Positions 3,592 through 64,000 of a stretch of 64,000 bases of DNA are shown one piece after another. The DNA comes from Porphyridium purpureum (lineage: Eukaryota). Both the position numbers and the translations under genes were made by a program. A model generated the notes under the pieces. The model was given only the letters and a program-made list of their open reading frames with translations, made no database searches and was not told where the DNA came from. Position 1 is the first letter of the stretch; every line of letters starts with the position of its first letter. The DNA lies in the NCBI GenBank assembly GCA_008690995.1, contig VRMN01000004.1, positions 1,550,001-1,614,000 on the forward strand, written 5' to 3'.

Positions 3592-4197
3592 TTCACGACG
3601 GCTGCAATGGCCGACCAACGCTCCTCCACCTTGCCCCTTAGACCTGCCTCAACGGCTCGCGCGTGCGGTGCAACCTTTTGACCACATTGGTCACGTGGAA
3701 GGAAAAAGGAACATGAAAGAGCGAGAGGAACGATTGGACGGCGGCTTGGGTCGTTTTGCTCGTTCCTTGCGCTCTTGATTGTGGGTGATTTACTGCAGTA
3801 CAATGCCAAATGCTGGACCTACTCAAAGCCACTCGACGGGGACGGAGCAGGATGCGGGTCACGTGACAAACACACATTGCATTGCCCTTCATGGTACGTG
3901 CACTGCGGGCGATCAGCACGCTGATCAGGTTGAGCGCTACCTTTCCATACCTTTTCTGCATTCTGTCTCTCTGAGTCGGAAAAGGATGCTGCTGACGAAC
4001 ATATTCGGGCCACGACGGGCATCTATGAGTGCAGCTGGTGCTGCAAAACATGTCTCTAAGTCTGCGTGCAAGAATACCATATAATTTCAAGGAGCCTGTG
4101 CGCTGATGCCGCCATCTTATACAGGAGTCAGCTCCAACTGCTGCATTGGACTAGTCCACAACGCAAGACAATGCGAGAAATGCTCCGTATCTGATGG

Positions 4198-5205
4198 CTA
4201 CTGGCCCGAACAATTGTCGATGCGCTCGCCGCGCTCGAATTGCTCCAGAGACGTAAGCACGCCCTTGCACACCGTGGTTAAACTCTCTGTCGTAAAGCTG
4301 GCCAAGTGCGGTGTGACAAGGACCCGCGGATACGCCAGTATGCGGCTCACATTTTTGTCTGGTACACCGTGCACACCATGGTCCCGTAGGAAAACGTCGT
4401 TATCGCACTCAAACACGTCCACGCCGAGCGCGCCAATCTGGCCAGATTCGAGGCCTCGCAGCACGGCAGCCGGGTCCATGAGACCGCCTCGACTCGTGTT
4501 TACCAGCACTGTGCCGTGCTTGAGCTTTCTGATCGACTCGTCATTGACAATATGTCTGGTTGCCTCAACCAATGGCGCATGCAGGGAAATGATATCGGAC
4601 CGCTCCCACAATTCATCAAGGCTCACATACTCGCCCCCCAGCTCGATAATGTGCGGCGACTCGAACGCATCGTAAGCCAAAATTTTGCAACCCAGTGCCG
4701 CCAGCGCGTGCGCCACGCGCACGCCCACGCGGCCAGTGCCCAGCAGACCGCATGTCTTGCCTCCTAGTTCGTGCCCAATAAGCGACGCTTGTGTCAAATT
4801 GCCGCCGGCAGCCCGCACGTACGCCTGTGGCACGTTGCGGAACAGGCTCAAAACAAGCGCAATGGTGAGCTCAGCCACCGCAGCGCTAGATACGTGCGGA
4901 ATGCGACACAGCTGGATATTGAGAGACCGCACCGCGTCCAGATCGAGCTCGGGCATGTCCGACAGCGACGGATGGCGCACCACGATCGCCTCCACGCCTG
5001 CCTCACGTAGCACGCGCAAAGTGACCCCATTCAGCACGTCTGTGCGCCCCACGCTCACCGCACGCACGCCCTTGCATAATCGTAGCAGCGCATCGCGCCG
5101 CAGCTCATGTACCGACTGGCTCACGCAGTCGATGTCGAGAGTGCCCACCTTACTGCTCAGCAGTTCGACTTCCGGCGCGATCGTGCTGAAGATCACGCAG
5201 CGCAT
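4198..5205 (-). CDS. D-lactate dehydrogenase-like D-isomer-specific 2-hydroxyacid dehydrogenase
   Basis: GLLGTGRVG Rossmann motif; DIISLHAP; NTSRGGL (Arg); DVFE (Glu); TPHLA (His). Confidence 0.9.
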   Translation of the reverse strand: MRCVIFSTIAPEVELLSSKVGTLDIDCVSQSVHELRRDALLRLCKGVRAVSVGRTDVLNGVTLRVLREAGVEAIVVRHPSLSDMPELDLDAVRSLNIQLCRIPHVSSAAVAELTIALVLSLFRNVPQAYVRAAGGNLTQASLIGHELGGKTCGLLGTGRVGVRVAHALAALGCKILAYDAFESPHIIELGGEYVSLDELWERSDIISLHAPLVEATRHIVNDESIRKLKHGTVLVNTSRGGLMDPAAVLRGLESGQIGALGVDVFECDNDVFLRDHGVHGVPDKNVSRILAYPRVLVTPHLASFTTESLTTVCKGVLTSLEQFERGERIDNCSGQ

Positions 5206-5349
5206 GATCGCAAGGCAGTTACGTCACCGGCTGGTCGTCACTGTCAATGAACAAGAGGAAACCTGACTCTCGAGCGTCGTGCTAGCCATGCGTGACGCTC
5301 GTCACACCCGTCCTACGAAGTCACCGGAACGAAAAGACATTAGACCCAA

Positions 5350-7070
5350 AGTGAAGAAAGCGTCAAGACGTCAGTGACATTGCCAACATCATTGTAGATC
5401 CTTGGTGCTTCGCAAGGTTTGTGGCTGACACCCCGACGATAGAAGCGGGAGTTGAGGACAATGGTAGTGCTGCACGCGACGCAAAGGCTGTCGAGCAATG
5501 TGACGATAACACCGAGGAGGAATAGCCTGCCGCGTAGCGAGGAGTGTGACCTGGCGTAGCGGCGCGGATAAAGCGCAGGAAGACCATCCGGCGGAGCGAT
5601 GTCGAGGTAGACCTCAGCTAGCTTTGCTGTGCCAGCCAAATGCAATGCGAGATCGATGACTGCGACCCTGGTATCGCCCGGCTTTCTGTTCAAGTCAGTC
5701 GCTCATTGAACAAATGGGTGCTGATGCTTCTCGAAGAAGGGGAACTTGTACCGAAACTCGACTAGAGCCTCTTCCAGGCAGATTTTACGACAATGGCGTG
5801 AGCTGCTACGTACGCTGGCGGTCTACGAGCAAGTGTGGCCTCTGAGTATGATTCGCTTCGACTGCCGCCATGTGAACCAGATGCTAAACTGTGCTAGATA
5901 AGAATTCTTGATAGCGTGCAAAAAACCATGTGGCGCTCTTCATCAGCATATGCATTGGCTACGCCTTCAAGATGGTATTTGATACTCTACCGCAGGACTT
6001 CAGAGCTGAGGATCGCCACAAGTCTAGACGCTGCTGCATGAAGCATGTGTCCCGTCAGTGCGGCACTGAAGAAGAGGAGCCTCTGTCTTAGTCATTCAAC
6101 CATGTCCGTACGCCAGCCACTAGGGCAACTGTGGTGAGCTGCATCAATGACAGACCCCAGCGCTACGAGGGTCTACCGCTGGACACTTGTAATCAGTTGC
6201 CAAACAAGCGAATGGAGAAGCACTGATGGGTCTATTCGTGACTGATGTACGATTTGCCAGGCGAGATGCTGGAGCATAGAATCAAAGCGTTTAGTATACT
6301 GCCGCTCTGCAGGCTTGCATTCAAGCAAATCATCGTTGATACACGTACTGAGAGAATGCTGTTGTTGCGTGTTGCTGAGCGCAACGGCTCTGCTACACCG
6401 GAAGCGCTGCCTATAGTCCGGAGCAACGAGTGCCAGTTCTGGTAGACCTCCAGCACACTGCAGCAACACGGAGTACCAGCAGAACATAGGTCTGAAAAAA
6501 GCTCATGCGAAGCGCAGCGAGTGAGTATGCCGAGCACATTTGCAAGCAGCCCTGAATCAGCAGCCAAGTGCCAAGATCTCCAGTATTGTGTCGATGTTGC
6601 ACAAAAAGCGGAGCTGTTCAACACATTGGACAGCCTGCTGTACTTGGAACTTACGAGGCGGGTACGAGGTTCAAGATCTCACAGCATTGCTTGCGGCAGA
6701 GAGTATTGTGTGATATCTGTCATAGGATGATAGCTCGAACTGATCCAAGCGATAAGAGACACACGATGGTGGCGTTTGGATCAGGCACGTCCATCAGCTG
6801 CAGCAGAGACCACGCCCCTGGCCATTTCAATGAATTGCGCAGCGTGCTGCCCAGAAGAGCCATTGAAGTGTATGGCGTGCATGAACACTCCGCTAGTCAC
6901 TGGTGCAACTGCAGCAGCAGCACAGTACTACACACACGCATTGTGGAGGCGGAAACATCGCGATTCACAGCATGCGACTCTCCGTATCAGCGACATGCAA
7001 ATATAAGAGTCTGAATGGCGATGTCTCTGTGTTTACTGGACATCCTGCATGAACTCGTCTCCATATCAGA
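5350..7070 (+). pseudogene. Degenerate Fanzor1 (eukaryotic TnpB-derived RNA-guided endonuclease) with stops, frameshifts and an internal deletion
   Basis: Collinear + strand fragments: LNKWVLMLLEEGELVPKLD*SLF (~5706-5775), KAFSILPL...IIVDT (6284-6343), EYQQNIG..KRSE*..PSAK (6471-6575), QRVLCDICHR..VAFGSG..HAPG..LRSVL..VHEHSASHWCNC (6697-6912), IHSMRL..C..LNGDV (6963-7025). Confidence 0.8.
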
Positions 7071-7079
7071 AGCCTTGAT

Positions 7080-7295
7080 AGTTGACCGGAATTGTTTACA
7101 CAGAGATAAGAAATTGAAGTCGCGCGTGCCGCAGCTTCTTAAAGGAGCACCATGCGGCGATAAAAAAAAACGCAGCGGTGTGAAACGGTGCTAAGCGTCC
7201 CTCACGCCAAGTAATAGGAGGGGGCATACGTACCCCATTTTTTTTGGTCTTACGGTCTGTCACGACATCCTCCGCCACAGAAGGGTGTAACATGA
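7080..7295 (+). ncRNA. Candidate omega-RNA or element right-end region downstream of the Fanzor relic
   Basis: Hairpins GCCGCA-GCTTC..GGAGC..TGCGGC (7128-7158) and ACATCCT..AGGGTGT (7265-7288); position 3' of the ORF matches known Fanzor/TnpB omega-RNA placement. Confidence 0.3.
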
Positions 7296-7556
7296 CTTCT
7301 TTTTTTCAGTGATAGCGACAACATTGCAATGACCTCTCCAGCCGCTGGTAGCTCTCCTGCCATCGACCTGCGAACTGGTCCTGTCCAAGTCATACTTTCC
7401 GAAAATGAAAGCTCGAACTGTCCCTTTCCGTCACCACAATACAACCGTCAAATATGCCAAGTCCTTCCGTCACCATCTAACGTCAGAAGCAGAGCGCGCC
7501 AGCTCAAAAGCAGTTGCCGCAGTTATACGATCTAAGAACGGGCTGGCCGATCTATG

Positions 7557-8657
7557 TTAGAGGCCTACCCAGCCACTGCCACTATACATGCGGTGTACAG
7601 CGTCATCAATGTATCGTACGACACTGAACAATCGCATCCGAGATAGCAGCCGATAGGCTACGGTCAAGCCAGGCAGGCGCGCAAGCGACACGCCACCCAC
7701 TGACACGTCTGTCCAGCACGACGCGAGGACGCCATCCACAACAATGCGCATGTTTTCGGTCTGAGGGTTGAGCACGCGGCCCGAGACACGATCGATGCGT
7801 GTGACTTGCGACTTCTCGGAAACCCCCGACTCGCTCATCACCACGAGCTGCGTGCGTGTGGAGACGTCGCGCGCCGCGATCACGCCCTCCTTCGGGTCTG
7901 CGCTCACAAGCAAGTGCGACGGCGTTACGCGGAGCGGCGAGGCGCCCTTCGAGTGGTGGATGAGCAGCAGCTCACGGACCATGCGAACGTCGGCGTGTTC
8001 CACGTGCATGAGCGTCGTAAACTCACGCGCACCGTCCAGCTGCGAGTAGGACTCGACGCGATCGCCCGCGACGAGCTCCACGAGCGGCTTGCTCAGTACG
8101 CTGCCGTCCCGCTGCATCGTCCTCACCTGCGCGTCCTCGGAGAAGCATTCAGGCTGGTCCAAGCACTCTGAGCACTCGAAGCGGAACGCCTGGTTTGAGA
8201 ACAGCCGGAAGCACCCAAACGTTGGAGACTCAGAGTCTGGCTGGGAGACGAATGTCACGTTGGGAATCACGTCGCCATCCAAAATGCACTGCGTTGGGGG
8301 CACGAGCGCCGAGATGTTATACTGCCACTGATCTGTGCGGAACCCGCCGCACTTGTCGTCTGTGGTGCGCGGGAAGCAGTTCATTCTGGCGGCCTCAAAC
8401 AAGGGCCTCAAGCGGCCGGTGCCCAGCACGCAAAAGTTATTGGGGTAATCGACACACACGGCGTTCCTCGGCGGGGTGAACGGCGGGAAGAGGAGCAGAT
8501 CCGCGCGACACTGCCGCAGCAACTCGTCCTGATCTCCGACGACGCCATCGCCGTACACGCAAATCCTCACGCTCGACACGGTGTCGACGTCATTCTGCGC
8601 GGCCGCAAGCGCGCACACCGCTGCCAGCACCACCACAGCCGCCCAACGCCCTCCCAT
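7557..8657 (-). CDS. Secreted protein with a Cys-rich N-terminal domain and a hedgehog-type Hint (Hog) autoprocessing domain
   Basis: Signal peptide MGGRWAAVVVLAAVCALAAA; Hint start E|CFSEDA at 8147; LVAGDRV; VTPSH (TxxH); NPQT..IVVDGVLASCW. Confidence 0.88.
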   Translation of the reverse strand: MGGRWAAVVVLAAVCALAAAQNDVDTVSSVRICVYGDGVVGDQDELLRQCRADLLLFPPFTPPRNAVCVDYPNNFCVLGTGRLRPLFEAARMNCFPRTTDDKCGGFRTDQWQYNISALVPPTQCILDGDVIPNVTFVSQPDSESPTFGCFRLFSNQAFRFECSECLDQPECFSEDAQVRTMQRDGSVLSKPLVELVAGDRVESYSQLDGAREFTTLMHVEHADVRMVRELLLIHHSKGASPLRVTPSHLLVSADPKEGVIAARDVSTRTQLVVMSESGVSEKSQVTRIDRVSGRVLNPQTENMRIVVDGVLASCWTDVSVGGVSLARLPGLTVAYRLLSRMRLFSVVRYIDDAVHRMYSGSGWVGL

Positions 8658-9722
8658 CCCGCCTCTCACCACCCCTCTCATCCCCCCCCACCACCACCAC
8701 CTTCCCTCCCTCTCCCTCTCCGTTCTTCTCTCTCCTCCCCCTCCCATAACCCCCCACCCCTCACCACTTTTGCCGCCTTCCCTGTTCTTCACTGTGCCGA
8801 ATCTTCCTATCAAGTCGGCGCAGTTTTATTACATCCATACGCACACACCCACACCCACCACGAATACGCCATGATCCACAATGAGTGCGTGCGGTTCGTT
8901 TCTGCGTCTTCTGCGTGTTCATAAACCACCACCACGCCAACAATACAAACCATCAAACAGCTACCAAGCAAGGATGGTTTGACTCCGGCCCAAGAGGTTC
9001 TGCTGGTTCTTTCGTCCTTTTCGTTTCGGAAGGGGGTTGACCGATTTCAAAAATGGAAACGGCGCGTGTGCATCGCACTAGCAGCAGCAGCAGCTCAAAA
9101 TAAGCACACCGAATAACACCGCGCGTTCTGGCAGAGCGCCGCGTTCCTAGTAGCTGCTCGCCTCTTCATAGGTCCCCAGCCTCATTTGAGCCCTATTTTG
9201 AGACATTGGTACAGCTTGGGTACAGTAGATGGCTTGGTTGGTTTGATGTGTGTTTTGGGGATAATGGCGGATCTGCTCGCCGCTAAACCGCTAAACCGGT
9301 AACCAGTAAGCAGTAAGCGGTAAGCGGTAAGGAAGGTGGGTGGGAAGGTGGATGTGTTGGTGATGCGCCGCTGGCGTGGAACTGCGGAGACTGCATCGTT
9401 GGAGCAGGGATATTGCGCAACATTAGGCTCGGGCGCAGGGCGTGGCTACTGAGGCTGTTGGCACGCGGTGTCACCAGGGAAAAGTCGCTTTGTTTGGGGC
9501 AGTGGCGCGCGAGCGCGGTTTGGCGGCTGCCAGTTCGCACGCGCGCGCGGCGACGCTTCCACCGAGAAGTACAGTTTGGGTACTGTTCGACCTGGGCGGA
9601 AACGGTTCAAGTGGTTCACATGGGAGGAATCTGGACGACTTCTGGTTTCGATGTGCGAGGCGGTGGTGGATGGGGGTAATGAGAAAGGGGAGAGGGAGAG
9701 ACGGGAGACCGCGAGCGGAAGG

Positions 9723-11420
9723 ATGGGTATGGGGTTTGTGGTTGTGGCGTGGGCATGCGTGTGGAGCGTCGGTCGGCGGAAGCGGCAGAGCGGGACTGGG
9801 CAGGGGCGATGTGAGGCGTGCGAGAGCTGGAGGGGCTCAGCGGCGCCGTGCCGAAGTGGCAGGCACGGCACGGGCAGTCATAGCATACGGAGTTTGCACG
9901 GACGGCGCGCGCGCCCGCGGCGGAGATTAGGCGGCGTTGCAATGAGTGGCGAGAATGCAAATAATCATGTACAGATTCAGAGGTACGGACATAAGGATGT
10001 GACGCGCGTCGTGCTCTGTCATCAGACGGTCGATTTCGACTCGCTGGCCGCGGCCGTCGGGTTGGCCAGGCTCCATCAGGCGTACGTCGTCATTCCGTCG
10101 GGTATGTCACTGCCTGTCAGGCTCTACTTGGCCACGCACTCCCATCTGTTCCCGATCATTCCCAGCAAGGTCGTCGATCCCACGCGCATAGAGTGGCTCG
10201 GCATCGTCGACACGCAGTCCAAGGACAGGCTCGGCGTCGGCGCAGAGTGGGTTTCATTTGCGAAGCACGTGACCGTGTACGACCACCACGTGCACATGGA
10301 GTGCGATATCATCCAGAAATCATCCAATAACGGCGTGGTGCACGAGCTCATCGTCGAATCGGTCGGCGCCGTGACCACGCTGATTGTGGAGAAGCTGCAC
10401 AGCGCAAACATCCAGTTGCACCCGGCAGAAGCCACGCTGCTTGCGTTGGGCATCCATGCAGACACGGGAAACCTCACGTTTGAAACCACGACGGCGCGCG
10501 ATGCACGCATGCTCGCGTGGCTCATGATGATGGGCGCAAGCCAAAGAGCCGTCGCAGAGTACATCCAGGAACCGCTCAACCAGGCTCAGACCACGATGCT
10601 CATGAAGGGTCTCGACGAGCTGCAGGTACGGCAGGTCAAGGGGCTCAGTATAGGCTTCGTGCTCATGCACAGCGACGAATTCGTCAAGGGAATGTCCGTG
10701 GTCACGCAGGACCTTTTGGAACTTGGGAATGTGGACGCGATTCTTCTGCTTCTTGTGAGCCCCGCAGGCCGCGGGCGCGCCTCCAGTCGGAGGCGGAAGC
10801 CGCGTAGCGACGACGAGGAGAGCGATACTTTGCAAATCTCTGTCATTGGCCGGGCTCGGGCCAGTGCAGGGCGTGTGAACTTTCACACGCTTTTTGCCCC
10901 TCGCGGCGGCGGTGGGCACGCAAAGGCGGCTGCGCTCAGCTGCAAGAGCTCAGACCCGGGGCACGCCCGAAGCCTGCTCGATGAGCTCTTGGCGGAGCTT
11001 GAGCTGCAACTGCCCTCTGCGCCGACCGCCGCCGACTTGCTGGGCGGCTCCATTCCGCTCCACAATGTGGTGCTTGCGCGAGATGCGACGTGGCTGGACG
11101 CGCAGCGCGTTCTCGCATCATTTCCAATTGCCGTGGTGGTCGAGTCGCTGGCGCTCGCGGACGAGGCGCCGCGCTTCCTCGGAGTGGTGTCGAGAGAGCA
11201 GCTCTCGGTGGCACAGTCAAAAGGCGCAGCAGCGCTGGCGGGTAAGGTGCATGGCTGGGCACAGAAGGGCGTGTTTGTCAGGCTGTCCCATTCGATTCGG
11301 GAAATCAAGGCCACGTTTGAGGAGAACCCGATTGGCGCTCTTCCTGTGCTCGACGAAACATGCAAGCGGGTGGTGGGCGTACTGGAGTCCACCGACGTGC
11401 TCCGACAACAGGGCGACTGA
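9723..11420 (+). CDS. DHH/DHHA1 phosphoesterase with a degenerate CBS pair, probably plastid-targeted
   Basis: LCHQTVDFDSL, IVDTQ, VYDHH, GIHADTGNL, GGGGHAKAA; C-terminal IGALPVLD..VVGVL CBS-like; MGMGFVV transit-like start (alternative ATGs 9729, 9942). Confidence 0.85.
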   Translation: MGMGFVVVAWACVWSVGRRKRQSGTGQGRCEACESWRGSAAPCRSGRHGTGSHSIRSLHGRRARPRRRLGGVAMSGENANNHVQIQRYGHKDVTRVVLCHQTVDFDSLAAAVGLARLHQAYVVIPSGMSLPVRLYLATHSHLFPIIPSKVVDPTRIEWLGIVDTQSKDRLGVGAEWVSFAKHVTVYDHHVHMECDIIQKSSNNGVVHELIVESVGAVTTLIVEKLHSANIQLHPAEATLLALGIHADTGNLTFETTTARDARMLAWLMMMGASQRAVAEYIQEPLNQAQTTMLMKGLDELQVRQVKGLSIGFVLMHSDEFVKGMSVVTQDLLELGNVDAILLLLVSPAGRGRASSRRRKPRSDDEESDTLQISVIGRARASAGRVNFHTLFAPRGGGGHAKAAALSCKSSDPGHARSLLDELLAELELQLPSAPTAADLLGGSIPLHNVVLARDATWLDAQRVLASFPIAVVVESLALADEAPRFLGVVSREQLSVAQSKGAAALAGKVHGWAQKGVFVRLSHSIREIKATFEENPIGALPVLDETCKRVVGVLESTDVLRQQGD

Positions 11421-12792: not shown

Positions 12793-13271
12793 AATAAGTA
12801 GATCGGGAGCGGAAGCGTTTCCGGTAAGAACGCGGACAAGACGCCAATCATGCTGCTCGCGAACGAGCACGGGCCCAAGTGGAGCGCGGATGGAAATACA
12901 GGGAGTCGTCTCTGAATGGATGATAGCTGCGAGCGCATGGACGGTTTGACACACTTTGAAGGGCTTCTGCCTTCTCGCGGATGTCCAGAATATGACTTTC
13001 GAGATCGCGCGACAGATTCGCGGCGGGGTTGGGCTGCTCGTGCAGAAGCTGCTTTCTCCCGCCCGTTGCTTCAGGCCACGATGTGCTTGGAGTCAGATAG
13101 GTGTGAGATCGTTTGGGCTTCTAGCGTTCGTTTTCTTTACCTAAAATGCATTTCACGGTTTATTGCACGGTCGTTCCATCGGTCTGTACGTCGTCTTTAT
13201 GACATTTGCACGAGCTTCAAATGCGCATTATGCGCGACTGGCCATTTTCATCTTGTTTGTTTAGAGAGCAG

Positions 13272-14606
13272 ATGAATTTTGCGCATCTCTCCTCAAAGTG
13301 CCATCTGCTCTCGTGTTCGCGGTCACGACTGCGTGCATGCTCGCGCCCGTCGCTCGCACTGTTGCAGCGCCGCAGGTGTGCGAGACTCGCGGCTTGTGCC
13401 ATGGATGCCGTGGGCACGGTGCGCGAGTTGCTCAAGCTTGAAGAACACAGGCTTGAAAATGATCCGTTTGTCGCACACCTAGAGGCAATGCGCAAGCTCC
13501 TCGCGAGCGCGTCGCAGTCGCCTCGTGCCGTTCGAGTGATGATGGGCAACCAAGCAGCTGACCTTGACTCGATTGTGAGCAGCACAGTGCATGCTTACGC
13601 CGAACAGTCGTCAAACTCTGTGCGGGCTGACGTGCAGTGTGTTCCTGTAATGAATGTCAGTGCGGCCGAAGTCAGACTGAGGACCGAGGCCACTTTTTTA
13701 TTCTCGCTGCTCGGCTTGGATCTCGCGTCCGTCACCAGCACAATCGACCAGTTCGATCTGGCTGGGCTGAAAGCACAGGACCGGATGGAACTGGTGCTGG
13801 TGGATCATAATGTGTGCGCACCGCAGCAGAGCGACTTTGAAGCTTGTGTCGTAGGCGTGATTGACCACCACGTCGATGAATGTTCCGCAGCGATGGGCGT
13901 GGACGGTCTTGAATACCTGATTGTGGAGCCAGTCGGCTCTTGTGCAACCCTCGTATATGAAAGGCTTCTGCAAAGCCAGGCTGCTGTGAGCTCGATCAGG
14001 CTGCAATTGCTCATCCTGGCTACCATCTTGCTCGACACCGCAAACATGGATCCGAGCGTGGGGCGAGCGACGACGAAAGATTCGCATGTAGTGGACATGC
14101 TTTCTCATCAACTCGCGAGCAAAATGGGGTGGAGCCAAGTCGAAACCGCGCAGTTTAAAGATGGCCTGTTTGCCCAAGTTGTGCGAGCCAAAAACAACAA
14201 GTCGGGCTTGTCGCGGGCCGAGCTGCTCATGAGCGATTATAAGCAATATGTGATGGGCTCGCGGTCCGTGGGCATCTGCTCAGTGCTCGAGCCGCTCACG
14301 TGCTTCTCTGAGAAGGATGTACTCGACTTTTACAATCTAAAGGCGCCTCTGGATCTCGTGTTGGTCATGGCGTCGTTCAAGGACACTGGAGGCGCGTTCC
14401 GGCGTCAGCTTGCTCTGTTTTCGTTCGAGGACAAGGAGCTTGCTCGCATTTTACATGCAAACCTGGCGCAGTCGGAGCATCTCATCTTGGCGCCCTTGGA
14501 AACGCCGATGGAGACTGAACACGGAATCTATTTGGAACAAAGAAACCTTAAGCTCTCGCGCAAAATATTGCAGCCTATCCTTCAGCGCGTGCTTGAAACG
14601 ATGTGA
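13272..14606 (+). CDS. Exopolyphosphatase PPX1/prune family (DHH-DHHA2)
   Basis: MGNQAADLDSIVS, LVDHN, VIDHH, VGSCATL, ILLDT, SDYK, SRKILQP; N-terminal extension; start uncertain (13272 or 13401). Confidence 0.9.
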   Translation: MNFAHLSSKCHLLSCSRSRLRACSRPSLALLQRRRCARLAACAMDAVGTVRELLKLEEHRLENDPFVAHLEAMRKLLASASQSPRAVRVMMGNQAADLDSIVSSTVHAYAEQSSNSVRADVQCVPVMNVSAAEVRLRTEATFLFSLLGLDLASVTSTIDQFDLAGLKAQDRMELVLVDHNVCAPQQSDFEACVVGVIDHHVDECSAAMGVDGLEYLIVEPVGSCATLVYERLLQSQAAVSSIRLQLLILATILLDTANMDPSVGRATTKDSHVVDMLSHQLASKMGWSQVETAQFKDGLFAQVVRAKNNKSGLSRAELLMSDYKQYVMGSRSVGICSVLEPLTCFSEKDVLDFYNLKAPLDLVLVMASFKDTGGAFRRQLALFSFEDKELARILHANLAQSEHLILAPLETPMETEHGIYLEQRNLKLSRKILQPILQRVLETM

Positions 14607-25241: not shown

Positions 25242-28200
25242 TCACCGCCCTTCACGGCCATCCGAGTCCGTGAAAGAAGCACGAGCAAAGGCTGATGGAA
25301 AGGGCCTTTGCTCCGGCGGGGTCCTTGGAAAGCCCGGACTATTACCGTCCAAGCTGGCCAAGGCAGGACGCACACTAGTTCTGCTGATTATGCGTGAACT
25401 GCTGGCGCCGCCGCGATCCTGCATGGACGCTGTGATAGACGGCATCGATCCAAACAGATGGGAAGGGCTCGAAGAGGGCGAGTAAAACGTGTCCCTCGGG
25501 GGCGCCACCGACTGCTGTTCCTGGACACCACCTGGGAGCAACGGCATGAGCTCAGCGAACACTGCTGCTGCCGCGTACTCGCTCTCGCATGTAGCGACCA
25601 AGGAGCCGATAAAGGGCGGCGGCGGCTGGTGCTGCCCTGTCTCGAGCCGGATGCGAAGCATCAGCTCGTCTCCGAGCTCACGCGCAGCGCTTGACTTCTT
25701 CGCGCCATTTGAGGGTCTCAAGGACATCAAACGTTGGGCCAATGATGGCGCTGCCATATGTCGGTCTCCACCGTCCTTGGTACCGCTCCAGCCTCTGCTC
25801 CGCTGCTTCCAGCGAAGACCCCCGCGTAAGATGGCAACTAGACAAAGTTCAACACGTTCGCACGAGACGCGTACGAGGTCTTCAAGCAGCACTTCCCAGA
25901 TGATCGTCCACCGCCCAGCCATGTGATAGCTGATCTGTTGCGCGATATTTCCGGGCCAGCGCGATTTTTCAGCCGCAGCATCCTTGCTCTGCATGAGATC
26001 CAGGCGGATGGCTCGGTGCGAAGTCAGCAGCAGTACGCTAGTTGCTGAAAGTGCGAAAAGCGCATGGCTCGCTTCGTTTGGCCACTGGCGCTGCTCACGA
26101 TGAAACAAGAAAATCTGCTCGCCCCACGAATCCCGGCGATACGAGAAAGGCACCAGTGCGCCAGATTCAGCAAGGCCTCTTGGCGGGCGTAGCGCGAGCA
26201 AGTACCCATTCAGCCCCACTGAAAACGGCCCCACGTGAACGACTGCAGGGTGCACAAGCTGGCGCATGAATCGAATAAAGAACACGACGCTACTCTGAGC
26301 GAGGCGGATCGTGCTGTATGCCACGCTCCACAGGTTCGGTGACGAACGCATCGAGCTTCGCTGATGGTGTCGCAGGAGCGACAACGTCTCTGAGTACGTG
26401 GATTGATACTCATTTTGCGCCGTCGGCACCGATGGAGTCGCCAGCGATGCCGCCATCAAGGCGCGCATTTCGCGGCTCGACGCACTGCTGAAGTGCTGCT
26501 TCCACCGGTTCAGTCCCTGGAAAACGTCGTAGTACATAGAAGCAAGTCGATCATCCACATCATGGAACCTGTGGGCATTCCGCTTTCGCTGCTTCGGCTC
26601 CAGCTGAAAGACTTGCTCGCCCAAAACAATGAGTTGGGCCAATAGGTCCTCGCACGCATCGAGAAAGCCGCTGGACACGGCGATGACCCCGAGTGACGGG
26701 CAGCTCTTGACCACCATGCGCAACGGGTTGAAGATCTTCAGGCTGAGCACGGTGGAAGCCGCAGCAGTCAGAAACTGCGACGCGTAGTGCAGCGTCATCG
26801 TCCGCATCAGCTGTTGTACGTCCGGCGCTCCCGCATCGAGCACCATGCGCTGCGCGAAAAACGAGAACGGACGCAAGTTGAGAAATGCGCGGTCGACCAC
26901 GGCGAGCTGCAGAATGCGAACGTGAATAGGAACATTCAACTCGGTACCAAAGAGACGAGGCAAATCCGCCGACTTTACGTCAACCGACCATACCGCCCGA
27001 ATGGGATCCACGTAGAGTTCGACCTGCGCCGCCTTTGGTACCGCAAAGCCTGCCGCCGGCGCTCTGGCTTCTGCCAACGGAGCACGAACGAACGATAGGC
27101 GATCAACAAGATGTCGCTGCACAGCCGCTTTCAGGTCCAGGTCCCCTTGACCATCTGTCTCGCACCGTTCAGAGCATCCGCACGTTTCCACCAGCATGTG
27201 CTCCTCGCTGTCTTCCACGCCCTGTCTAGTCAGCAGAGGAAGTATGAAGGCATGCTTCAAGATCAGGAAGAAGCCCGAGTCGGCATCGATCGAGATCGGA
27301 GCCACAGCAACGTGAATGCGTGCTTGCGTATGACCCTGCTGCTGTTTCACTTCTGTGTCGTATATTGCGCTTCCCACCACTCGGATGAAAGGCGGTACGT
27401 CTTGAAAGCTTCTATCTGGCGACTGCACTTCTCTATCGCCAGAGGACCTCAATACCCGCGTGCGCACGTGTGCTCCGCTCTGATCCATATCACGCGAACC
27501 GCTCATTTCGAGCGCCGTGAGCTCGACGTTTCGCGACAGCAGCGGTCTCGCTCGATCCAGCAAGTTGTCTAACTGCACATGTGGTACGCACAAGTGAAAT
27601 GAAGCCGAGGTTTGGCTTTGATTCACGAGGAGGACTGTGGCCAACGAAATGCTTGACGCCTCCAAATAGGCAATCTCAAACGGAACGGAATGATGCTGAC
27701 GCTGTGCGACAGTCGGCGACCGCGCGGCACGATTCGTGGGTTTTGATTTTTGTAGCACACGGGCGACTTTCTGTAGACCACCGAGCGCGGTGCGATTCTC
27801 CAGTTCCACCACTGTCCCCGTGTCACTTAAAACCGACATCGAGATGCCTGCGCATTTCAGAAAAACCCACATCGCCAGTTCCTGCTGTTTCGGGTCTTCT
27901 CTATACCTGATGTGCCCGTTGGTAGGCATGGAAGAAAAGGGAAGCCCACTTGGTAACGATGCTACGAGCGGGCGGTTCGATTCAAAGCGTCCCATTTCTT
28001 CTTGACGCTCGAACTGCAGCCCCCGGGGGCCGACGTCATGGGGCGGCGCAACTGCAGGTGACATACCTGAGTGTATCATCAAGTACATACGTGCACCGTC
28101 GCGAGCACAATGCACGCGAACCGTGAGCGTCTTGGTGCTGCTTTTTGAAAGCTGATGCTTCTGTCTTTGCTTTTGACTGTGTGTTGATGTTCCGCTCGCA

Positions 28201-31200
28201 CGTCTACTCTCGGGCAAACTCACTTGAAAATCCCACTCTCGCCCGTCCCACGCCTCCTCCGCATCAATGCAGCCAACGAACAGCTCCATTTCACTCGCAC
28301 GATCTTTGCGTGTAGCAGATGTGCCAATATCCGTACTGACTCGGCGACGGAGGGTCAACTGGAGTACGCGCTTGCCGCCGGGATCATCCCAAGCGTAGTC
28401 TTGATCGCTGTGAGGATGAAGCAAAACTGTAGGCCTCTTCTTGTCAGAGCGTGCAAGCCCGTCTGGACCAGACACTTGCGCAATCTCAAAAATCTCGTCA
28501 GAATTATTCGCGAGGTACACAGGAATCTGCGCGGCGTCTGCAGGCGACACAGAGACTTTCAGTACGCCGTGCGGATCGGTTACGCACACATTGATCACCA
28601 CAAAGCGTGACGATGGCTTGTTCTTGGTCCTAGTGCGTCTGCTTGTGGTTCGCAAGACCAGTTGCGCTATCAGCGACGTAGGCATTTTGTGAACCCTCGA
28701 GGCGGGTTCGGAGACATCAGGATGTGAAGCGGGAATGCTACTGTAGAGATCGGCCTGGAGCGGCAAGCATCCCATCCAGAGCCACTCATCGTCATCCTCG
28801 TCACCACGCATCGACAAAGAAAGCGCTGGTACCAGTGAACTGACTGGCGCGTACGGTAGCTTCAGCAAGCTCACTGTTTCACCAATGTGCACGGGGCGCG
28901 CGGAGATGTACCTACACGGTGTAAACAGTGATCCGCGAAACGGATGCATCGCCGAACTCAGCCCGAGGCGAAGTACGAGCGCACAACTTTCCCCTGCACA
29001 CCCAGAAGACGTTGGCGGAGATGCACACGAGTTCCGCACATAAACTGCCGGCATCAAGCTCACGATCGTGGTGTCCCGAAAAAGTCCTACCCCACGCGAT
29101 ACTACCGGTGCAATGCAAGTCGCCGCTCGGACAACGTGCCTCTTGCTGGCCAAGTTGGACGCTGATAGAGATGTTCGCGTTCGAACCAAAGGCTTTGCAG
29201 ACGAAGGCGAAGACCCCGCGGACGGGACAAAAATCAGATTGCCCACAGTTTGGCCGCCGCTTGTTAGAACACCGTCCACGTCTTGGCCAGCAAGGGTCGG
29301 AAATTTCATCCATTCCTCGATCGGTGTGACAGAAATCCACTCCGACTGCCCGAGCTTGAGCTTGATGTTTAAAGTCGATCCACTCTGCGCTACCGCATGC
29401 GGTTCCGCATACTCGAGCTTTGAAATATACTTGGGCTGACTATGGCTCCTGGCTGCTGCCACACTCGCAGCAGACGCCTTATTTCGCGAACTTGACGTCT
29501 TTGTGAGGGATGAGGCACGTTGGCCTACCATTACGGATAGTGGCATCTTGAGCACGTCCTGCGGATATAGCATGTTCACGAGCCAAAACTGACTCCAAAG
29601 TCGCACGGTGTATGCCGCGAGCGGGGACGAGCCACAACTTGGTCCGTTTTCGTTGCTGCTTTCCCAATAAATGTGTTCATCTACTGCCACTTGGGCTTCG
29701 AGTGCATTCTGCTGAATGTTCATACCCAGCCCTCCAAACTGAGGGAGAGATACACGCGCGGACAAAGGAGCGAACGATGGCGACTGGGCACTTGCGTCCG
29801 CCAGCTTCACGGGAGCACTCCATGCGCCACTTGACACCAGCCGACAGCGCATTCCAAGCTCCGCGAGACGTACAATACTTGGAGACTTTCTCAAAAAGGC
29901 ACCAGAACCTTGCGAGCCACAACTCAATTCAGAAATCTGCCGTTTCGCGCCACTCGGGATCACGTGTTGATGCATTTTTTCGTGCGCATACTCTTCTTCT
30001 GAATCTTCGACCTGGTACGAATCACTTCGTGCCAAGTCGGAAAAGAAGCCCAGTTCCACTTCTACGTCGTGAGACAACGCATTTTGAAACTCGACAAAGT
30101 CGACCAGGGTAATGGTCTTTCGGCTGACCGCTGGACGAAAGCTCTGTCCGGAAGAGGATTCGCGCACGGCTAAGATATACGTACACTCCACGTCTGGATT
30201 GTGCATCACTACGAGTTGATGCCCAGACGGCCGCGGCTTCGTTTCGTGAGCGCTGGTCCTGCTGCCCAAAGTCCTACCCGTAATCGAAAAGATTGGCTCC
30301 GAGCTCCATGCCCAGCCAAAGTCGGACTGTTCTCCATCGGCATCTACAACACCAGGAAGCCCGCAAAAAATACTGCATGCAGAACCCGGGCCGCGGTCGC
30401 TAAGGAGTGTGAAGAGATCCACTGGGAGTGAGCAACGGTCCGGAGACAATAACTGCCCCAGCAGACGCTCACCCACAGTGACCATCCCTTCTGCCGAGAC
30501 AGCCTTGAGGAGCAAAGTGTGGGAGGAAATATTCACCACAGACACATGTGAGCGCAAGGTGAGCACCGTCGCTTTCCCCACGTGACGCACGTCCACCATA
30601 ATGCAAGCATCGCCTTCTCGACTGGGTGTCGCATGTACACTGGATATTTTCCGTGCACCATCCTGATTTGACTCGGCACATTCTGTTTTGACTATTACAG
30701 CACGTATGCCCGGTGGACAGTCGCGCAGCCGAAGCCGCGCACACGGTAGCAGAACGCCAGGCGCGCTAAAGCTCAAATCCACCATTTCGCGATCATGTGA
30801 CTGCATATCGTTTGTGGAGGGCGAAGGGTCACGCAACGGAACACTGGCGTACGAGGTTGACGCAACGTCTACAAAATTCTCATCAAGCTGATGCTGAAGA
30901 TGTTGTGCTTTTGGCCTCGTCCATACAACGACCTTCAGATCTATTCCAGTCTCGTTACAAATCCATAAAGGCGCGTCCGAGCCCGCAACATTCGAAAGCA
31001 ATCGCTTGTCAAGATGTTGCTCCCCGTATTCACTGCCTGCCTTGCTCAACGTGTCAGGGTCCGAAAGATGCATTGAGGAAGTAAACAGAGGCTGCAAGGC
31101 CCTTTGTAGAATATGAAATGAGCGCACAAATCGAGTGGTCATGTTCAAATTCACCGTTTGCGGCACATGCACATTTAAGAAACATGAAAGCGGTGCTCTT

Positions 31201-34200
31201 GACGACCCATCCGTCTCGTCTCCGCTGCTCGTGCGTTTGCCTCCATCTCCTTTTTCTTCCGCCCGCATAGTGCCAGGTAAGATCGTGCGCTCACATAGTG
31301 GCTCCCACACCCCAATCTCGGGGTACAAGACATCTGACTGGAATTCTAGTTTGGCAGATCCATAAACCGCCTTGTCTCCTGACTGCTTCTGCAGCACAGT
31401 CTCGTCCATCTTTGCCGCATCCGCTTTCAACCCCAACATGAAACGCACTGCGGCGGGCGTTCTGGAGCCCCAACTATCCATCAACACAAAAAAACACTTT
31501 TCTACCTCCAGCTCTACCGTAGGCCATTGCAGCGAGACGAAAGAATAGATTGGACTGCTGCTCTTTCCTCCGACTTGTTCTTGTTCCTGTGACGGTCGCG
31601 GCCGCGCGAAAATCTGATTGTAACGATCGACTTGTTTCTGAGACTGCTCGCAAAGGCCCACGATTGCCATGACTTCTGAAGCAGCCACGTGCACATGGAA
31701 GCCGCTCAAGCTCACGCGCACCTTTGAGCAATCTGTCTCTGTCCGCGTTAAATCGCGTTCGCCGCTGACTTTCCCATGCGTGATGCGTACAATCGGGATC
31801 GGCGACATGCGGGCACCCAAGCAAGCCGTGTAGTGGGTCAAGCGCGAAGCCCCGGAAAGGGCAGTCGTCGCTCTCGACGCCCCTGACACAGACGCTGAAG
31901 ATGACTGCCAGTCTAGATTCAACGCGCCCCCGCCGGCTTTGGTAGCACTGCTGAAACTGTTATTGCTAGCTGTGGTGGTGAAGACACCAGGCGGGCAAAA
32001 TGAAATAAGTGTCTTGGACATGTCGAGCTGAAAGTCTGGAATGCTGCGCGGCGGGTCCGCAATCTGAAGGCATAGAGCCACAGGAGCGCGGCACAGCAGT
32101 GCGCTCGATCGCGGATCAAACGGGTCCGCGTTAAACCACAGCTCCAGTCTCAGTCCCAACTTGACCTCCACTGTGCCATGTGTCTGAACCACTACCGGCA
32201 CCGGTTCGTCGACAAGATCTATAGCCTTTGCATCTTTGATATCCATTGGCCCGGCAGCGGTTGCTTGGTTGTCCTGTGGAGACGGCGGTTGCAAAAAGTC
32301 GACCAGCAAGAGCATGAAATCAGTTGACAGTGATACAAACAGCCTACCAAAGTCAAGCTTCGCGGCTATGTTCATCTCCGGGCCACCACCCCACATATCG
32401 AGCTCAACAGCAAGCGCCAGTTCGTACCCGCGAGCAGGTGTAACACGCTCTGCGCCAGTCAGAAGCAAATCAGGGACGCGGTCTCTCTCAATTTCGTTCA
32501 GAGCTGCGGCTGGCCCTTGCATCACCGAGCGTTCGCTATCACCGGATGCATATTTGAGAGGTGTTCCGCCACGCCGGACTGGACGCGAAAGAATAACTGT
32601 ACGAAACGGGGTATATACTCCGTTGCGCGAGTCGCGGATAGCAATCGAATGAACGCCTATGTGCGTGCGTTCGTGGTACGTTGTCACAGCGCCAGCGACA
32701 TCCTCTGCGCGACTGGTCGCAGAATCGACTACGCGCAGGCCACGAAGTGCCACCGACGCCAGCGGTAAAAGATCTTTGCCGTTGCCGTGACTGTGCTGCA
32801 CAAGCTCAATCTGCACGTCATCTAACGACAATTCGGTACCAAACCAGTCGACGTTGCCCCGCTGCGAGGTCGCCGCAAACAGGTTCGGGTCATACATGAT
32901 ATTGTGCTGGCCGACAGCCAATAACGCTGCCAGCTGCTCGCTTGATAGCATCACGTGCAATTCATTCACACGCAAGGCGACACCTGTGAATGATGCGCGG
33001 CAACCTGCCACAGAGTGAACTTGCATCTGCACATTCATGTTCGTGAGAAACCGAACATGACATGTCTGTGGATGCTCTCGTCGTTGCCTGTCGCTGCCAT
33101 TCAGTAAACTCTCGTGCAACGAGAAGCGCACGGCCCCACTAATTTTGACGCAATCAATCGAGAGTTGGCTGCCCAAAACAGCGGAACCGCTTGACTCTCC
33201 TTGCTGATACAGCTGCGATATCTCCTGCCGTTTCGACGCCAGGAGGTCAAGCTTATTCGCAATTTCGGGCAAGAGTCGAATTCGTGTCGCATGACCTGAT
33301 AAAAGCACTGCATCGCGCATGTGCGCGCCTTGCGGCAATTCAATGAGGAAAGGGCCAGTATTTACACTGATGGCCATACTTTTTGCAGTCGCGTCATGTG
33401 CCGACGGCGGAGTAGCCGCGGCTTGATCTTGTCCTTGACTTTCTATGCTGGTCGGATGCTTCCCGACGGTGCCCATCATGCGAGTCAGAAAAGAAACGAA
33501 GCGCATGACAAATGCTGCCCGGACTCTACCAAGCGTGACCTGAACGTCGCTGTGATTGCTCTTCATGAAGACGAGAGCGTGCAACGCACACTTGTTTGAA
33601 TCAAATTTCGTTCTTTGCACACGAGCATCGCCTTCCGCCATTGTCTCGAAGGACATGGAACTATCGAGCGATGAAGTAGGACGGCTTAGGTCTAGCACCC
33701 GCGGATATAAGCCTTTATGTCGCGTGTGATCGTGCACGCTCAGAGCCTCAATATTTGCCTGCAAAACTTCTGTGCTTGCACGCACATCGGTGTCCTCACT
33801 TTCCACTAGAAAACCTCCATTACGACTTGGATCACTCTTAGCGACGTTTCCTGACTTTTCATACACAACCTGAAGGCGCTCAACGCACAGTCCTACGCCC
33901 CTCTGCTTCTCTTCACCAAGAATGATATCGAGACGTGCTAGATCAAAATTCACGAGAAGCGGCTGCTCAAGCGAAGTCTGGGTCGGTACCGGTGCTGCTG
34001 CTGCTGCTGCCGCCGCCGCCAAGGCTGATGATTCGGGAGAGGATGACGCAGATGACGATGGAAGCACTTGTCCTTGTTGTGTGAATTGACTCGCCATCTG
34101 ATTGCTCCATTGTGAAAAGAACGCAACGTATTGATTAAGGCTCGCGGTGTCGACCGCAATCGCAACGGTGCCGAGCCGCGCACTAATTTCAGGACTCGGT

Positions 34201-37430: not shown

Positions 37431-38106
37431 GTCCCCTCGTTCCCTGTGACACGCAAGTACGCAAGCACGCAAGCATGCGAACAGGCACACGCCACCAATC
37501 TGCCACGGGCGCCCAACCCCCCGCACTCCGTCGTTCGTCCGTGCTCCCCGTTCTTCTTCTTCTTCTTCTTCCTCCTCATTCTTCCGCCCTTCAATGCGCT
37601 TGCCGCATGCTTCGGCTGCCACAACTTGTGTCATGTGGGGGGTTCAGTCAAAACACGTACAGTTGACTGTAAATCGTCCAAACGGTCCGCATTACCGCCA
37701 GATGAACCGAACCGATAAGGAATCGGTGAGGACCAAGCGAGCGCAGAGACAGACGACACCAGGAGTAGAGAACGCGGGACGACGAACGTCGGCAGCGCGC
37801 GCGTGATCGTTGCAAGGTTGGAAACCTGCTTTTGGCGTGGTTGGGAGTCAACGTAACCAAGTGTTATGAGGTTGTGCGGTTGAGTCCCAGTAGCGGAGCT
37901 TTTTCACGAACTCAGCTGTGTCTGGATAAAGAAAAGTCGAATGCACAGTTTCAAGCATTAGGGTTAGGGATTCAACGGGAAGACGCAAGTCGTACAGAGC
38001 TCAACGATTGATTACACGATTGACAATTGTTTCAGGTTACAAAAGGAGAATGATAAACCACGCAAGGACTCCAGGTGGCTCGGACACCCACACGCGCATA
38101 CGGTAC

Positions 38107-40281: not shown

Positions 40282-41279
40282 CGCGCACCTCTCCGTTCCG
40301 CGCCTCTAGCACGCCCATTCATACCTCAACCCCCTCACCAACCACCACCACTCCCAACAACCTTCCTCTTCACCAACACACCACCTGCGCACGCGCTTTA
40401 GTATCCACCACCAGCCCTCTAACGCACGCGCCTCGACCCATTCGATGATTCCCCCAACGCAACATCGCGAAGCCGCATACTCACGATTTCGCACGTCGTG
40501 ACGAATCGGAGAGAAAAAAAACCACCAAAAACCCCACAAAAACCCCACAAAAACACTACAGAACACGACTTGGATTCGGGTTTCTACGGCTTTGCGGTGT
40601 TTTCGTCAGACGCACGCGAGTTGTTTTGATTTGGACACGTGCACAAAATCGCAGTGTGACTCTAGCTGCTCGCAGCGATCAAAAGGCGAAGAAGAATGAT
40701 AAGATGCTCTGCAACTGCGCGCTTTGTGCGAGGCACGGCGAGCACGGAACTTCGGGCCTCGTGTTTTCATGTACACTCGGCACGTGGCCAGCGCTATGTG
40801 TGTCGTGTGTCGTGTTGGGTTGGTTGGGAATGCGGGAATGAATGCGGGCATGTGAATTGGAGATGCGCTGAAAAGCCTGAACGGACGGGCGTTGAGGTTG
40901 TGCTGCAAGCTGGACGTCGGCGGTGCCATGCGCAAGTGCACACGTGCCTGCCGCGGTGCGAAGCGGCGGGCGCGATGCAGTTGTGCAGCAGTCGTGCTCG
41001 TGCGCAGCGTGCGGATGGTGAACATGGAGAACAGGACCAAGGCGGTTCGCACTGCCACGGCGAGGCGTCAGCGACGAGTCGCAAAGTCGCTCGACGCATG
41101 TGTACCTAGGCATGGCGCTTGCACATCGCTCGCATATAGTCTCGACCATGTCACGCACGGCGGCTGTGGGGGTCACGAGCCACTTCTGCAGAGCTCCCCT
41201 ATACCGCACACCTCTGGTCGTCCGGGCGAGCTCATCACACTCACATGCTCCTGGCCTAACCCTTATGTTCAGGGGTGAC

Positions 41280-63714: not shown

Positions 63715-64000
63715 TTGATGGTAGCAGCGAGGGAGGAAATTTAACAACTATATAGCCTTGTTCTTTCTATTCACGGTTTGAAGACTTTGAAACCGAGGGA
63801 GTACAGTCATATTCGATAGTGTACACTTGAGCGAGATTTGTTTTTCAGGTTTGGACATGCGGCGAGGAGAGAGGTGATCATGAGAGACGCAGAGAGGGAA
63901 GGAGGGAGGGAGGATTGGAGAAGGTCTTGGTGTCGTTTGCCTCTGCAAGATGAAGGTTGTGGTGCCGAATATGCTGGACTTCCTGCAGTCGCCAATATAC

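What the first reader, a model, noticed from the sequence alone, without database searches (positions are those of the whole stretch)
5350..7070. Hidden decayed Fanzor1 (TnpB/Cas12-family RNA-guided nuclease) between two housekeeping genes
Seen: this apparently intergenic 1.7 kb yields collinear + strand peptide fragments when read through stops and frameshifts. In order: an N-terminal block VEVDLS*L...IARLSVQVSRSLNKWVLMLLEEGELVPKLD*SLF; KAFSILPLCR..IIVDT; EYQQNIG.K..KRSE*...PSAK; QRVLCDICHR..VAFGSG..HAPG..LRSVL.RR..VHEHSASHWCNC; IHSMRL...C...LNGDV..LDIL. Established: this order matches Fanzor1, with the FSLLP..I.IDT motif, bridge helix, RuvC-II AFG..vdE.xTSxxC zinc finger and RuvC-III NRDxNAAxNI. 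Inference: this genome hosts, or once hosted, a Fanzor-carrying mobile family; intact siblings elsewhere could be new programmable nucleases from a little-sampled algal lineage.
Basis: partly seen in the sequence, partly recalled or inferred. Interest (0 to 1): 0.9.

Follow-up and report, generated by a model that had tools for sequence, protein, structure and literature searches.

The report
Dead Fanzor1 gene in an alga
This 1.7 kb stretch is the broken remnant of a Fanzor1 gene (a eukaryotic RNA-guided DNA cutter related to Cas12), likely left by an old transposon in a red alga; it cannot encode a working nuclease, so it is a fairly ordinary fossil of a known family, useful mainly as a pointer to intact, untested relatives elsewhere.

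Summary
Window 5439-7142 (+) is a Fanzor1 pseudogene. Five collinear blocks match a profile of intact relatives at 19-144 bits; shuffles reach 1.1. Read through, it is 55% identical to intact 655-661 aa proteins. The predicted fold of one of these matches SpuFz1 (TM 0.67, E 2e-23).

Runs from other studies share the damage.

The subclade is already catalogued as FZ1 through an oomycete protein. A second degenerate relative is annotated in Porphyridium purpureum, the likely host. No intact sibling, terminal repeat, target duplication or transposase was found, but no genome was available, so copy number is open. The guide-RNA tail is only marginally recognisable (p 0.03-0.08). The relic is weakly transcribed, and its right end lies in the neighbouring Hint gene's 3' UTR. 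This scan earlier noted decayed Fanzor1 copies in another red alga. Verdict: new member of a known kind, low-moderate interest.

The parts
5439..7142 (+). Fanzor1 pseudogene, whole former reading frame (start codon now ATA, terminal TAA at 7140-7142); 14 premature stops and 8 frame changes, break positions approximate
   Evidence: tblastn with P0046/P0049; read-through alignment, 55.6% identity over 534 columns to P0049
5439..6448 (+). N-terminal extension, first WED strand and REC region, including the FSILPLC..I.IDT motif (three frames)
   Evidence: profile domains of 64, 19 and 144 bits; 57% identity over 176 aa to P0046; domain names inferred from the alignment to SpuFz1
6448..6453 (+). 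Junction of a deletion of about 91 codons (P0046 residues 337-427) that removed the WED TDG motif and the RuvC-I DPG with its catalytic Asp
6453..6930 (+). Helical region after RuvC-I and RuvC-II; the repositioned catalytic Glu survives as GAA at 6883; zinc-finger CxxC now CxxS
   Evidence: profile domains of 31 and 76 bits
6948..7142 (+). Rest of the zinc finger (third Cys lost), RuvC-III (Asp survives as GAT at 7020, NRD now NGD, frameshift just after) and C-terminal tail
   Evidence: 75-80% DNA identity in 40-64 nt stretches to L002/L003/L005
7143..7255 (+). Possible remnant of the element's right end / omega-RNA scaffold (weak)
   Evidence: collinear similarity to the shared ~110 nt tail of L002/L003/L005, p 0.03-0.08; missed by a covariance model; no folding signal
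4198..5205 (-). Left neighbour: D-2-hydroxyacid (D-lactate-type) dehydrogenase gene, host
   Evidence: PF02826/PF00389; homologues
7557..8747 (-). Right neighbour: Hint-module protein gene, host (start codon uncertain)
   Evidence: PF01079, E 3e-15
7047..7556 (-). 3' UTR of the Hint gene, running antisense over the relic's last codons and right end; poly(A) added at about 7084
   Evidence: depth 240-400 in the orientation of minus-strand genes, read starts at 7047, and a non-genomic T24 loose end at 7084

Best explanation
This is a broken Fanzor1 gene, likely the remains of an old Fanzor-carrying transposon that inserted between two host genes of a red alga (probably Porphyridium) and then decayed without selection. 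Shown: homology across the whole length; loss of the start codon; 14 stops; 8 frame changes; deletion of RuvC-I and the TDG motif. Inferred from family knowledge (PMC10432273, PMC10711439): the ancestral protein of about 660 aa bound an RNA made from the element's right end and used the flanking bases as a guide to cut double-stranded DNA beside a short motif, which helped the element spread. Inferred: the element carried no transposase of its own here and was moved in trans. Inferred: it reached the red alga horizontally, because its nearest named intact relatives are from an oomycete. Today it cannot make a nuclease. Its weak sense transcription is probably leftover or divergent-promoter activity, and its right end now serves as part of the neighbouring gene's 3' UTR.
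For: Collinear profile hits far above shuffles. 50-56% identity to P0045-P0049 and P0055. The profile of relatives hits only SpuFz1 (E 8.9e-17), PpFz1 and GtFz1 at E<1e-7 in the PDB. The model of P0046 (pLDDT 83) matches Fanzor1 structures at E 1e-18 to 2e-23 and TM 0.59-0.68, against TM 0.28 for Fanzor2 and 0.23 for ISDra2 TnpB. The relic sits in a clade with P0046/48/49/55 and the P. purpureum protein (SH-aLRT 99, quick tree), on a branch of 0.9 against 0.03-0.17 for intact members. Identity to L003 is 64/67/54% at codon positions 1/2/3, so first and second positions have eroded too. Contigs from two other runs span most of the relic with no gaps and 2 and 5 other letters, so the damage is not assembly error. 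Three relatives share a 95-96% identical 3' end that stops abruptly at one motif in three different flanks, as mobile elements do.
Against: No element ends, terminal repeats, target duplication or transposase were found, so the transposon origin of this copy is inferred from the family. The pairing of the relic with the P. purpureum protein is a long-branch join with weak support (57/26). No relative was found in viral contigs or prokaryote genomes, so the route of arrival is unknown. Among strain differences, 7 of 13 are synonymous where 2.9 are expected (P about 0.012, post hoc), which pure neutrality does not predict.
Confidence: 0.88

Rival explanations
1. The relic is one copy of a family that still has intact, active members in this genome or in close strains, and some of the RNA reads come from a younger sibling.
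For: RNA reads differ from the window at 13 sites in the relic with an excess of synonymous changes, and 3 of 4 reads lack the one-base frameshift at 5920. One metatranscriptome holds two variants at 6154-6183. C. merolae keeps a few intact copies among about 150 decayed ones (PMC3627910).
Against: No listed variant removes any stop codon, and no contig below 90% identity maps on the relic at the 80% setting (that call's tables omit 10 rows each). The only named Porphyridium relative found is itself degenerate. The profile search returned no row named Porphyridium among 62 hits, though most hits are unnamed.
Confidence: 0.1
2. The relic has been co-opted: it is kept as a non-coding transcript or as the 3' end signal of the Hint gene.
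For: Sense-strand RNA at depth 3.5-12 across 5476-6951 in a stranded library, and contigs over it in a run that lacks the adjacent 4492-5311 stretch. The Hint gene's mRNA is polyadenylated inside the relic.
Against: The depth is low, at the level of the weakly expressed neighbour and 30-100 times under the Hint 3' UTR. The relic carries 13 listed strain differences against none listed for 7000-8680. No Rfam family and no folding signal.
Confidence: 0.08
3. The gene arrived as a fragment of an integrated giant virus rather than in a transposon.
For: Fanzor1 occurs in giant viruses (PMC10432273). One more distant relative (L001) lies beside an intronless MYND-finger gene and a long unknown gene, which could be viral (my impression, not tested).
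Against: No viral gene in the window. No relative in the viral contig collection. The closest loci with DNA (L002, L003, L005) sit among eukaryotic-looking genes.
Confidence: 0.07
4. The breaks are errors of a long-read assembly and the true gene is intact.
For: One frameshift lies in an A-run and is absent from 3 of 4 reads of one read set.
Against: Short-read contigs of two other runs span 5448-8687 and 5510-6879 with no gaps; the stops are substitutions; the 91-codon deletion is bridged by these contigs.
Confidence: 0.01

Closest known systems
Fanzor1 of Nothophytophthora sp. Chile5 (RLN68060.1, branch FZ1 in Supplementary Table 1 of Saito et al. 2023, PMC10432273; database relatives P0056, P0061)
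   Same: Same subclade: the table row shows the same motifs (YSNKEYQQKIGLKKA, FSQHCLRQRVMYDIC, VAFGAG); 48-49% identity of the relic to P0056/P0061; sister to the relic's clade.
   Different: Oomycete host, catalytic motifs intact; the relic is broken and lacks RuvC-I.
SpuFz1, PpFz1, GtFz1 (solved Fanzor1 structures: 8GKH, 9CF0, 9CER)
   Same: Same fold and domain order in the intact relative (TM 0.59-0.68); profile match across positions 106-525.
   Different: Only 14-18% identity; target motif and guide RNA of this subclade unknown; the relic itself makes no full protein.
CMe-1A / CMe-1 of the red alga Cyanidioschyzon merolae (Bao and Jurka 2013, PMC3627910)
   Same: Old Fanzor1 family in a compact red algal genome, mostly decayed, no terminal repeats, unknown transposon class.
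   Different: The CMe-1 protein shown in the supplement lacks this subclade's signature motifs by eye (not computed); a motif search of that file found no member of the subclade. About 150 copies there; copy number here unknown.
Porphyridium purpureum hypothetical protein FVE85_9124 (KAA8492852.1; P0015)
   Same: Degenerate member of the same clade; 10 shared derived residues at 51 columns.
   Different: A different locus, on a contig of different length from the window's genes; keeps DPG but lacks both ends; annotated as a gene and not named a Fanzor.

Membership tests
Fanzor1 (descent) | Full-length homology to Fanzor1 rather than Fanzor2, TnpB or Cas12 | tested here: met
   Relic 55% identical to P0046/P0049; their profile and fold hit Fanzor1 structures first by a wide margin
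Fanzor1 (descent) | Repositioned RuvC-II glutamate next to the zinc finger (Ealt; PMC10711439) | tested here: met
   Glu at 6883 aligns with VNEDY of the relatives and with DEYKTS of SpuFz1
Fanzor1 (active nuclease) | RuvC-I DPG motif with catalytic Asp | tested here: not met
   Present in intact relatives (P0046 residue 405), deleted in the relic
Fanzor1 (active nuclease) | WED-domain TDG motif (PMC10711439) | tested here: not met
   Present in relatives (P0046 358-360), inside the deletion in the relic
Fanzor1 (active nuclease) | RuvC-III Asp and four-Cys zinc finger | tested here: not met
   Asp codon survives at 7020, but 2 of 4 Cys are lost and the region is frameshifted
Fanzor1 (active nuclease) | Continuous open reading frame of about 600-700 codons | tested here: not met
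   14 stops, 8 frame changes, start codon lost
Fanzor1 system | Structured omega-RNA at the element's right end | tested here: inconclusive
   Weak collinear similarity to the relatives' tail (52-155 of 2000 shuffles score as well); not found by a covariance model built from only three near-identical tails; small RNA not examined
Fanzor1 system | Carried by a transposon (ends, target duplication, transposase, several copies) | tested here: inconclusive
   No terminal repeats or transposase seen; relatives L002/L003/L005 show a sharp shared right end; genome not available
Fanzor1 system | RNA-guided DNA cleavage beside a target-adjacent motif | not testable with these tools
   Needs a biochemical assay with an intact relative; the relic is predicted inactive

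The most novel reading that the evidence does not exclude
A stramenopile-type Fanzor1 transposon jumped into a unicellular red alga, spread, and still has an intact, RNA-guided copy in some Porphyridium strains. The transcribed variant with a synonymous excess and one fewer frameshift would be a trace of that younger copy. The 110 nt tail shared by three recently mobile relatives would give the guide scaffold for an untested 660 aa Fanzor1 subclade.
Probability: 0.1. Interest if true: 0.5.

Novelty: new member of a known kind. Interest (0 to 1): 0.27.

Why it matters
As it stands it adds a probable new host genus to the known range of Fanzor1. I found no Fanzor described from Porphyridium in the searches named in the full report. 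It also hints at a transfer between oomycete or other stramenopile lineages and a red alga. The relic has no tool value. The practical by-product is a set of intact 630-700 aa relatives with complete catalytic motifs (P0045-P0052) and a defined 3' end for a closely related family (L002, L003, L005), which could be tested as programmable nucleases.

Tried and rejected
Whole-genome search: no genome is held for this window. The word-indexed protein search with the short fragment found nothing; the index-free search did. Pfam, NCBIfam and PDB sequence searches with raw fragments gave only chance zinc-finger or cytochrome hits, rejected. P0008 (a Flavobacterium repeat protein) was dropped from all alignments as a chance hit. 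Viral contigs (0 of 29 candidates) and prokaryote genomes (0 of 22) held no relative. Rfam gave nothing credible. The covariance model from three tails did not find the relic's tail, nor the tails of L001 and L004, so it is too narrow to be decisive. Folding z-scores of the relic's tail are near zero. No terminal inverted repeat was found. An alternative right end at about 7314, and a chance CAAGTAATA at about 7210, were considered by eye and set aside for the collinear register. The higher depth of contig 5448-8687 in run X2 (142 against 23) was considered as a sign of extra copies and rejected: the contig breaks at transcript boundaries, so the run is probably RNA (inference). I first suspected C. 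merolae CMe-1 and rejected it on the published protein (by eye) and on marine samples holding the stretch. A search of flanking-gene homologues did not name the host. The shuffle controls timed out and were replaced by those. The ESM Atlas did not answer. A second read lay on likely DNA runs gave no result, so genomic copy number stays open.

Full report
Observation. The window is a gene-dense, intron-poor eukaryotic sequence of 56.5% GC; the relic is 52% GC. Its neighbours are a D-2-hydroxyacid dehydrogenase gene (4198-5205, minus) and a Hint-module gene (7557-8747, minus). Raw fragments do not hit Pfam; the C-terminal piece hits no solved Fanzor, no TnpB model and nothing in a word-indexed search. 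An index-free search with 6574-7014 found 16 proteins at E<=0.001 among 1.84 billion, best 1.5e-14. Of 11 of these scanned, 7 carry the Cas12f1-like TNB domain PF07282 above its cut-off. A profile search widened the set to 62 proteins.

Significance. A profile of 22 relatives matches five collinear blocks from 5502 to 6927 at 19-144 bits. Nothing else in the window exceeds -1.2 bits and 200 shuffles reach 1.1. The relatives were seeded with the C-terminal piece only, so the N-terminal matches are independent support.

Anatomy. Against the closest intact proteins (P0049, 661 aa; P0046, 655 aa) the frame begins at 5439, where ATA aligns with their first Met, and ends at a TAA at 7140-7142. Identity is 55.6% over 534 columns to P0049. 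Using nine segments that I chose from the alignments, there are 14 premature stops (one, at 7083, lies at a break of uncertain frame) and 8 frame changes. P0046 residues 337-427 are missing between 6448 and 6453. This removes the TDG motif and the RuvC-I DPG, both described as Fanzor signatures in PMC10711439 (passages). The RuvC-II Glu (6883) and RuvC-III Asp (7020) codons survive; two of four zinc ligands are lost. It cannot encode a nuclease.

Family. The profile of first hits matches SpuFz1 (E 8.9e-17), PpFz1 (7.4e-16) and GtFz1 (3.5e-8) in the PDB; the fourth of 4 hits is noise at 0.64. An AlphaFold model of P0046 (mean pLDDT 83) ranks seven Fanzor1 structures first (E 2e-23 to 1e-18, TM 0.59-0.68), far ahead of Cas12f, Fanzor2 (TM 0.28) and TnpB (0.23). 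This tests the relative, not the relic. In a quick tree of 35 rows the relic falls in a clade (SH-aLRT 99) with P0046, P0048, P0049, P0055 and P0015; the oomycete Nothophytophthora proteins lie in a neighbouring clade within an unresolved group. A careful 12-row tree agrees. Supplementary Table 1 of PMC10432273 lists a Nothophytophthora protein of this subclade as FZ1. I therefore file the locus as a pseudogene descended from Fanzor1, not as an active Fanzor1.

Host and family history. No tool named the organism. P0015 is an annotated hypothetical protein of Porphyridium purpureum and is itself degenerate. It shares 10 identical residues with the relic at 51 columns where both differ from all intact relatives, although the tree join is long-branch and weak (57/26). 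The window's genes are held in the same four source collections as P0015, and marine RNA samples hold about half of the stretch's words. Porphyridium is thus likely but inferred. Identity of 48-49% to oomycete proteins after heavy decay, and 59-62% DNA identity over about 390 nt to L002/L003, suggest horizontal transfer; direction and vector are unknown. No relative was found in viral contigs or prokaryote genomes.

Right end. Of 8 metagenome loci, L002, L003 and L005 share a 95-96% identical 3' region that ends about 110 nt after the stop at GTAATA and then diverges; L001 and L004 end at the same hexamer with a different tail. This marks an element end and a candidate omega-RNA scaffold for the relatives (folding z -1.4 to -3.1 for three of four tested; +0.7 for L004). 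The relic's 7143-7255 aligns in register with the L002-type tail only marginally (52-155 of 2000 shuffles as good; rank 51 to 636 of 6386 overlapping windows). A covariance model missed it, it shows no folding signal, and Rfam has nothing. No terminal repeat or left end was found.

Reads. I laid 4 of the 24 listed runs. In stranded raw RNA reads (X24, up to four samples, about a fifth read) the relic has sense-strand depth of 3.5-12 over 5476-6951 against 0-1.5 antisense. The Hint gene's transcript runs antisense through 7047-7556 at depth 240-400, and X14 shows a non-genomic T24 end at 7084, so this mRNA is polyadenylated inside the relic. X14 and X2 are listed as 'DNA?' but behave like RNA (my inference). 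Their contigs span 5510-6879 and 5448-8687 without gaps, so the breaks are real. Against a purely neutral reading: 7 of 13 listed strain differences in the relic are synonymous (2.9 expected, P about 0.012, post hoc; 10 rows of that table were not shown), and 3 of 4 X24 reads lack the 5920 frameshift. No listed variant removes a stop. I leave this unexplained; chance or a second copy are both possible.

Literature. PMC3627910 (passages; supplement list; passages of files 1, 8, 9; files 13-14 not searched) describes CMe-1A, about 150 decayed Fanzor1 copies in C. merolae, so decayed Fanzor1 in red algae is known. bioRxiv 10.1101/2025.02.11.637652 (one passage; supplements closed) mentions uncharacterised Fanzor elements in Bangiophyceae. 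For Porphyridium: a full-text search for Fanzor plus Porphyridium gave 1 paper, where the terms are unrelated; Fanzor plus rhodophyt gave 7 papers, 6 listed. Supplements of PMC10432273 have no Porphyridium row (one PDF unreadable) and its file 3 has none for six other red algal genera; PMC10530073 has none (supplement search only). PMC10711439 has 2 Porphyridium pattern hits; neither is P0015, and they look like unrelated zinc-finger proteins to me (recalled). Long table cells were cut and subscription papers and Repbase were not searched, so absence from print is not established. PMC10432273 main text was seen as passages; PMC2362128 (Hint proteins, red algae) only as a search listing.

Verdict. 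Real and correctly identified, but a dead copy of a known family in an already catalogued subclade. New member of a known kind; interest 0.27.

Noticed in passing
L002:528-638, L003:405-513, L005:286-394: Three near-identical (95-96%) Fanzor1 3' ends in different eukaryotic-looking flanks define a recently mobile family with a ~110 nt tail ending GTAATA, a candidate omega-RNA scaffold. L002 begins abruptly in the middle of the gene (residue 530), so it is a 5'-truncated or internally deleted copy.
   Followed up: partly
L001:1258-3335: Intact 654 aa Fanzor1 with all catalytic motifs and a strongly folding 113 nt tail (z -3.07, 0 of 200 shuffles) that shares a 73 nt block and the terminal hexamer with L004; a ready candidate for testing.
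   Followed up: partly
window 7557-8747 (-): Hint-module (Hedgehog-like autoprocessing domain) protein with a hydrophobic N-terminal stretch and a Cys-rich region; highly expressed, with a ~500 nt 3' UTR that ends inside the Fanzor relic.
   Followed up: partly
window 5478-6757: 13 strain differences in the relic, 7 synonymous in the dead frame (2.9 expected), and a read set lacking the 5920 frameshift; unexplained.
   Followed up: partly
window 9453-11420 and 13203-14606 (+): Two nearby DHH-family phosphoesterase genes, one with CBS and DHHA1 domains and one with DHHA2 (bacterial-type architectures).
   Followed up: no
window 38107-40305 (-): WD40 protein with a recent, highly similar 123-126 nt tandem repeat array (39291-40292, 68-88% identity between copies).
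   Followed up: no
window 25242-37643 (-): Uninterrupted 4133-codon frame with a weak VPS13 adaptor-binding domain hit.
   Followed up: no
window about 3990-4004: All four read sets laid show the same loose end before 4004 that does not match the window: a strain difference, a splice or an assembly difference.
   Followed up: no
window 56845-56869 and 63823-63847: 25 nt inverted repeat pair (80%) 7 kb apart in low-GC intergenic stretches; may be chance or the end of another element.
   Followed up: no
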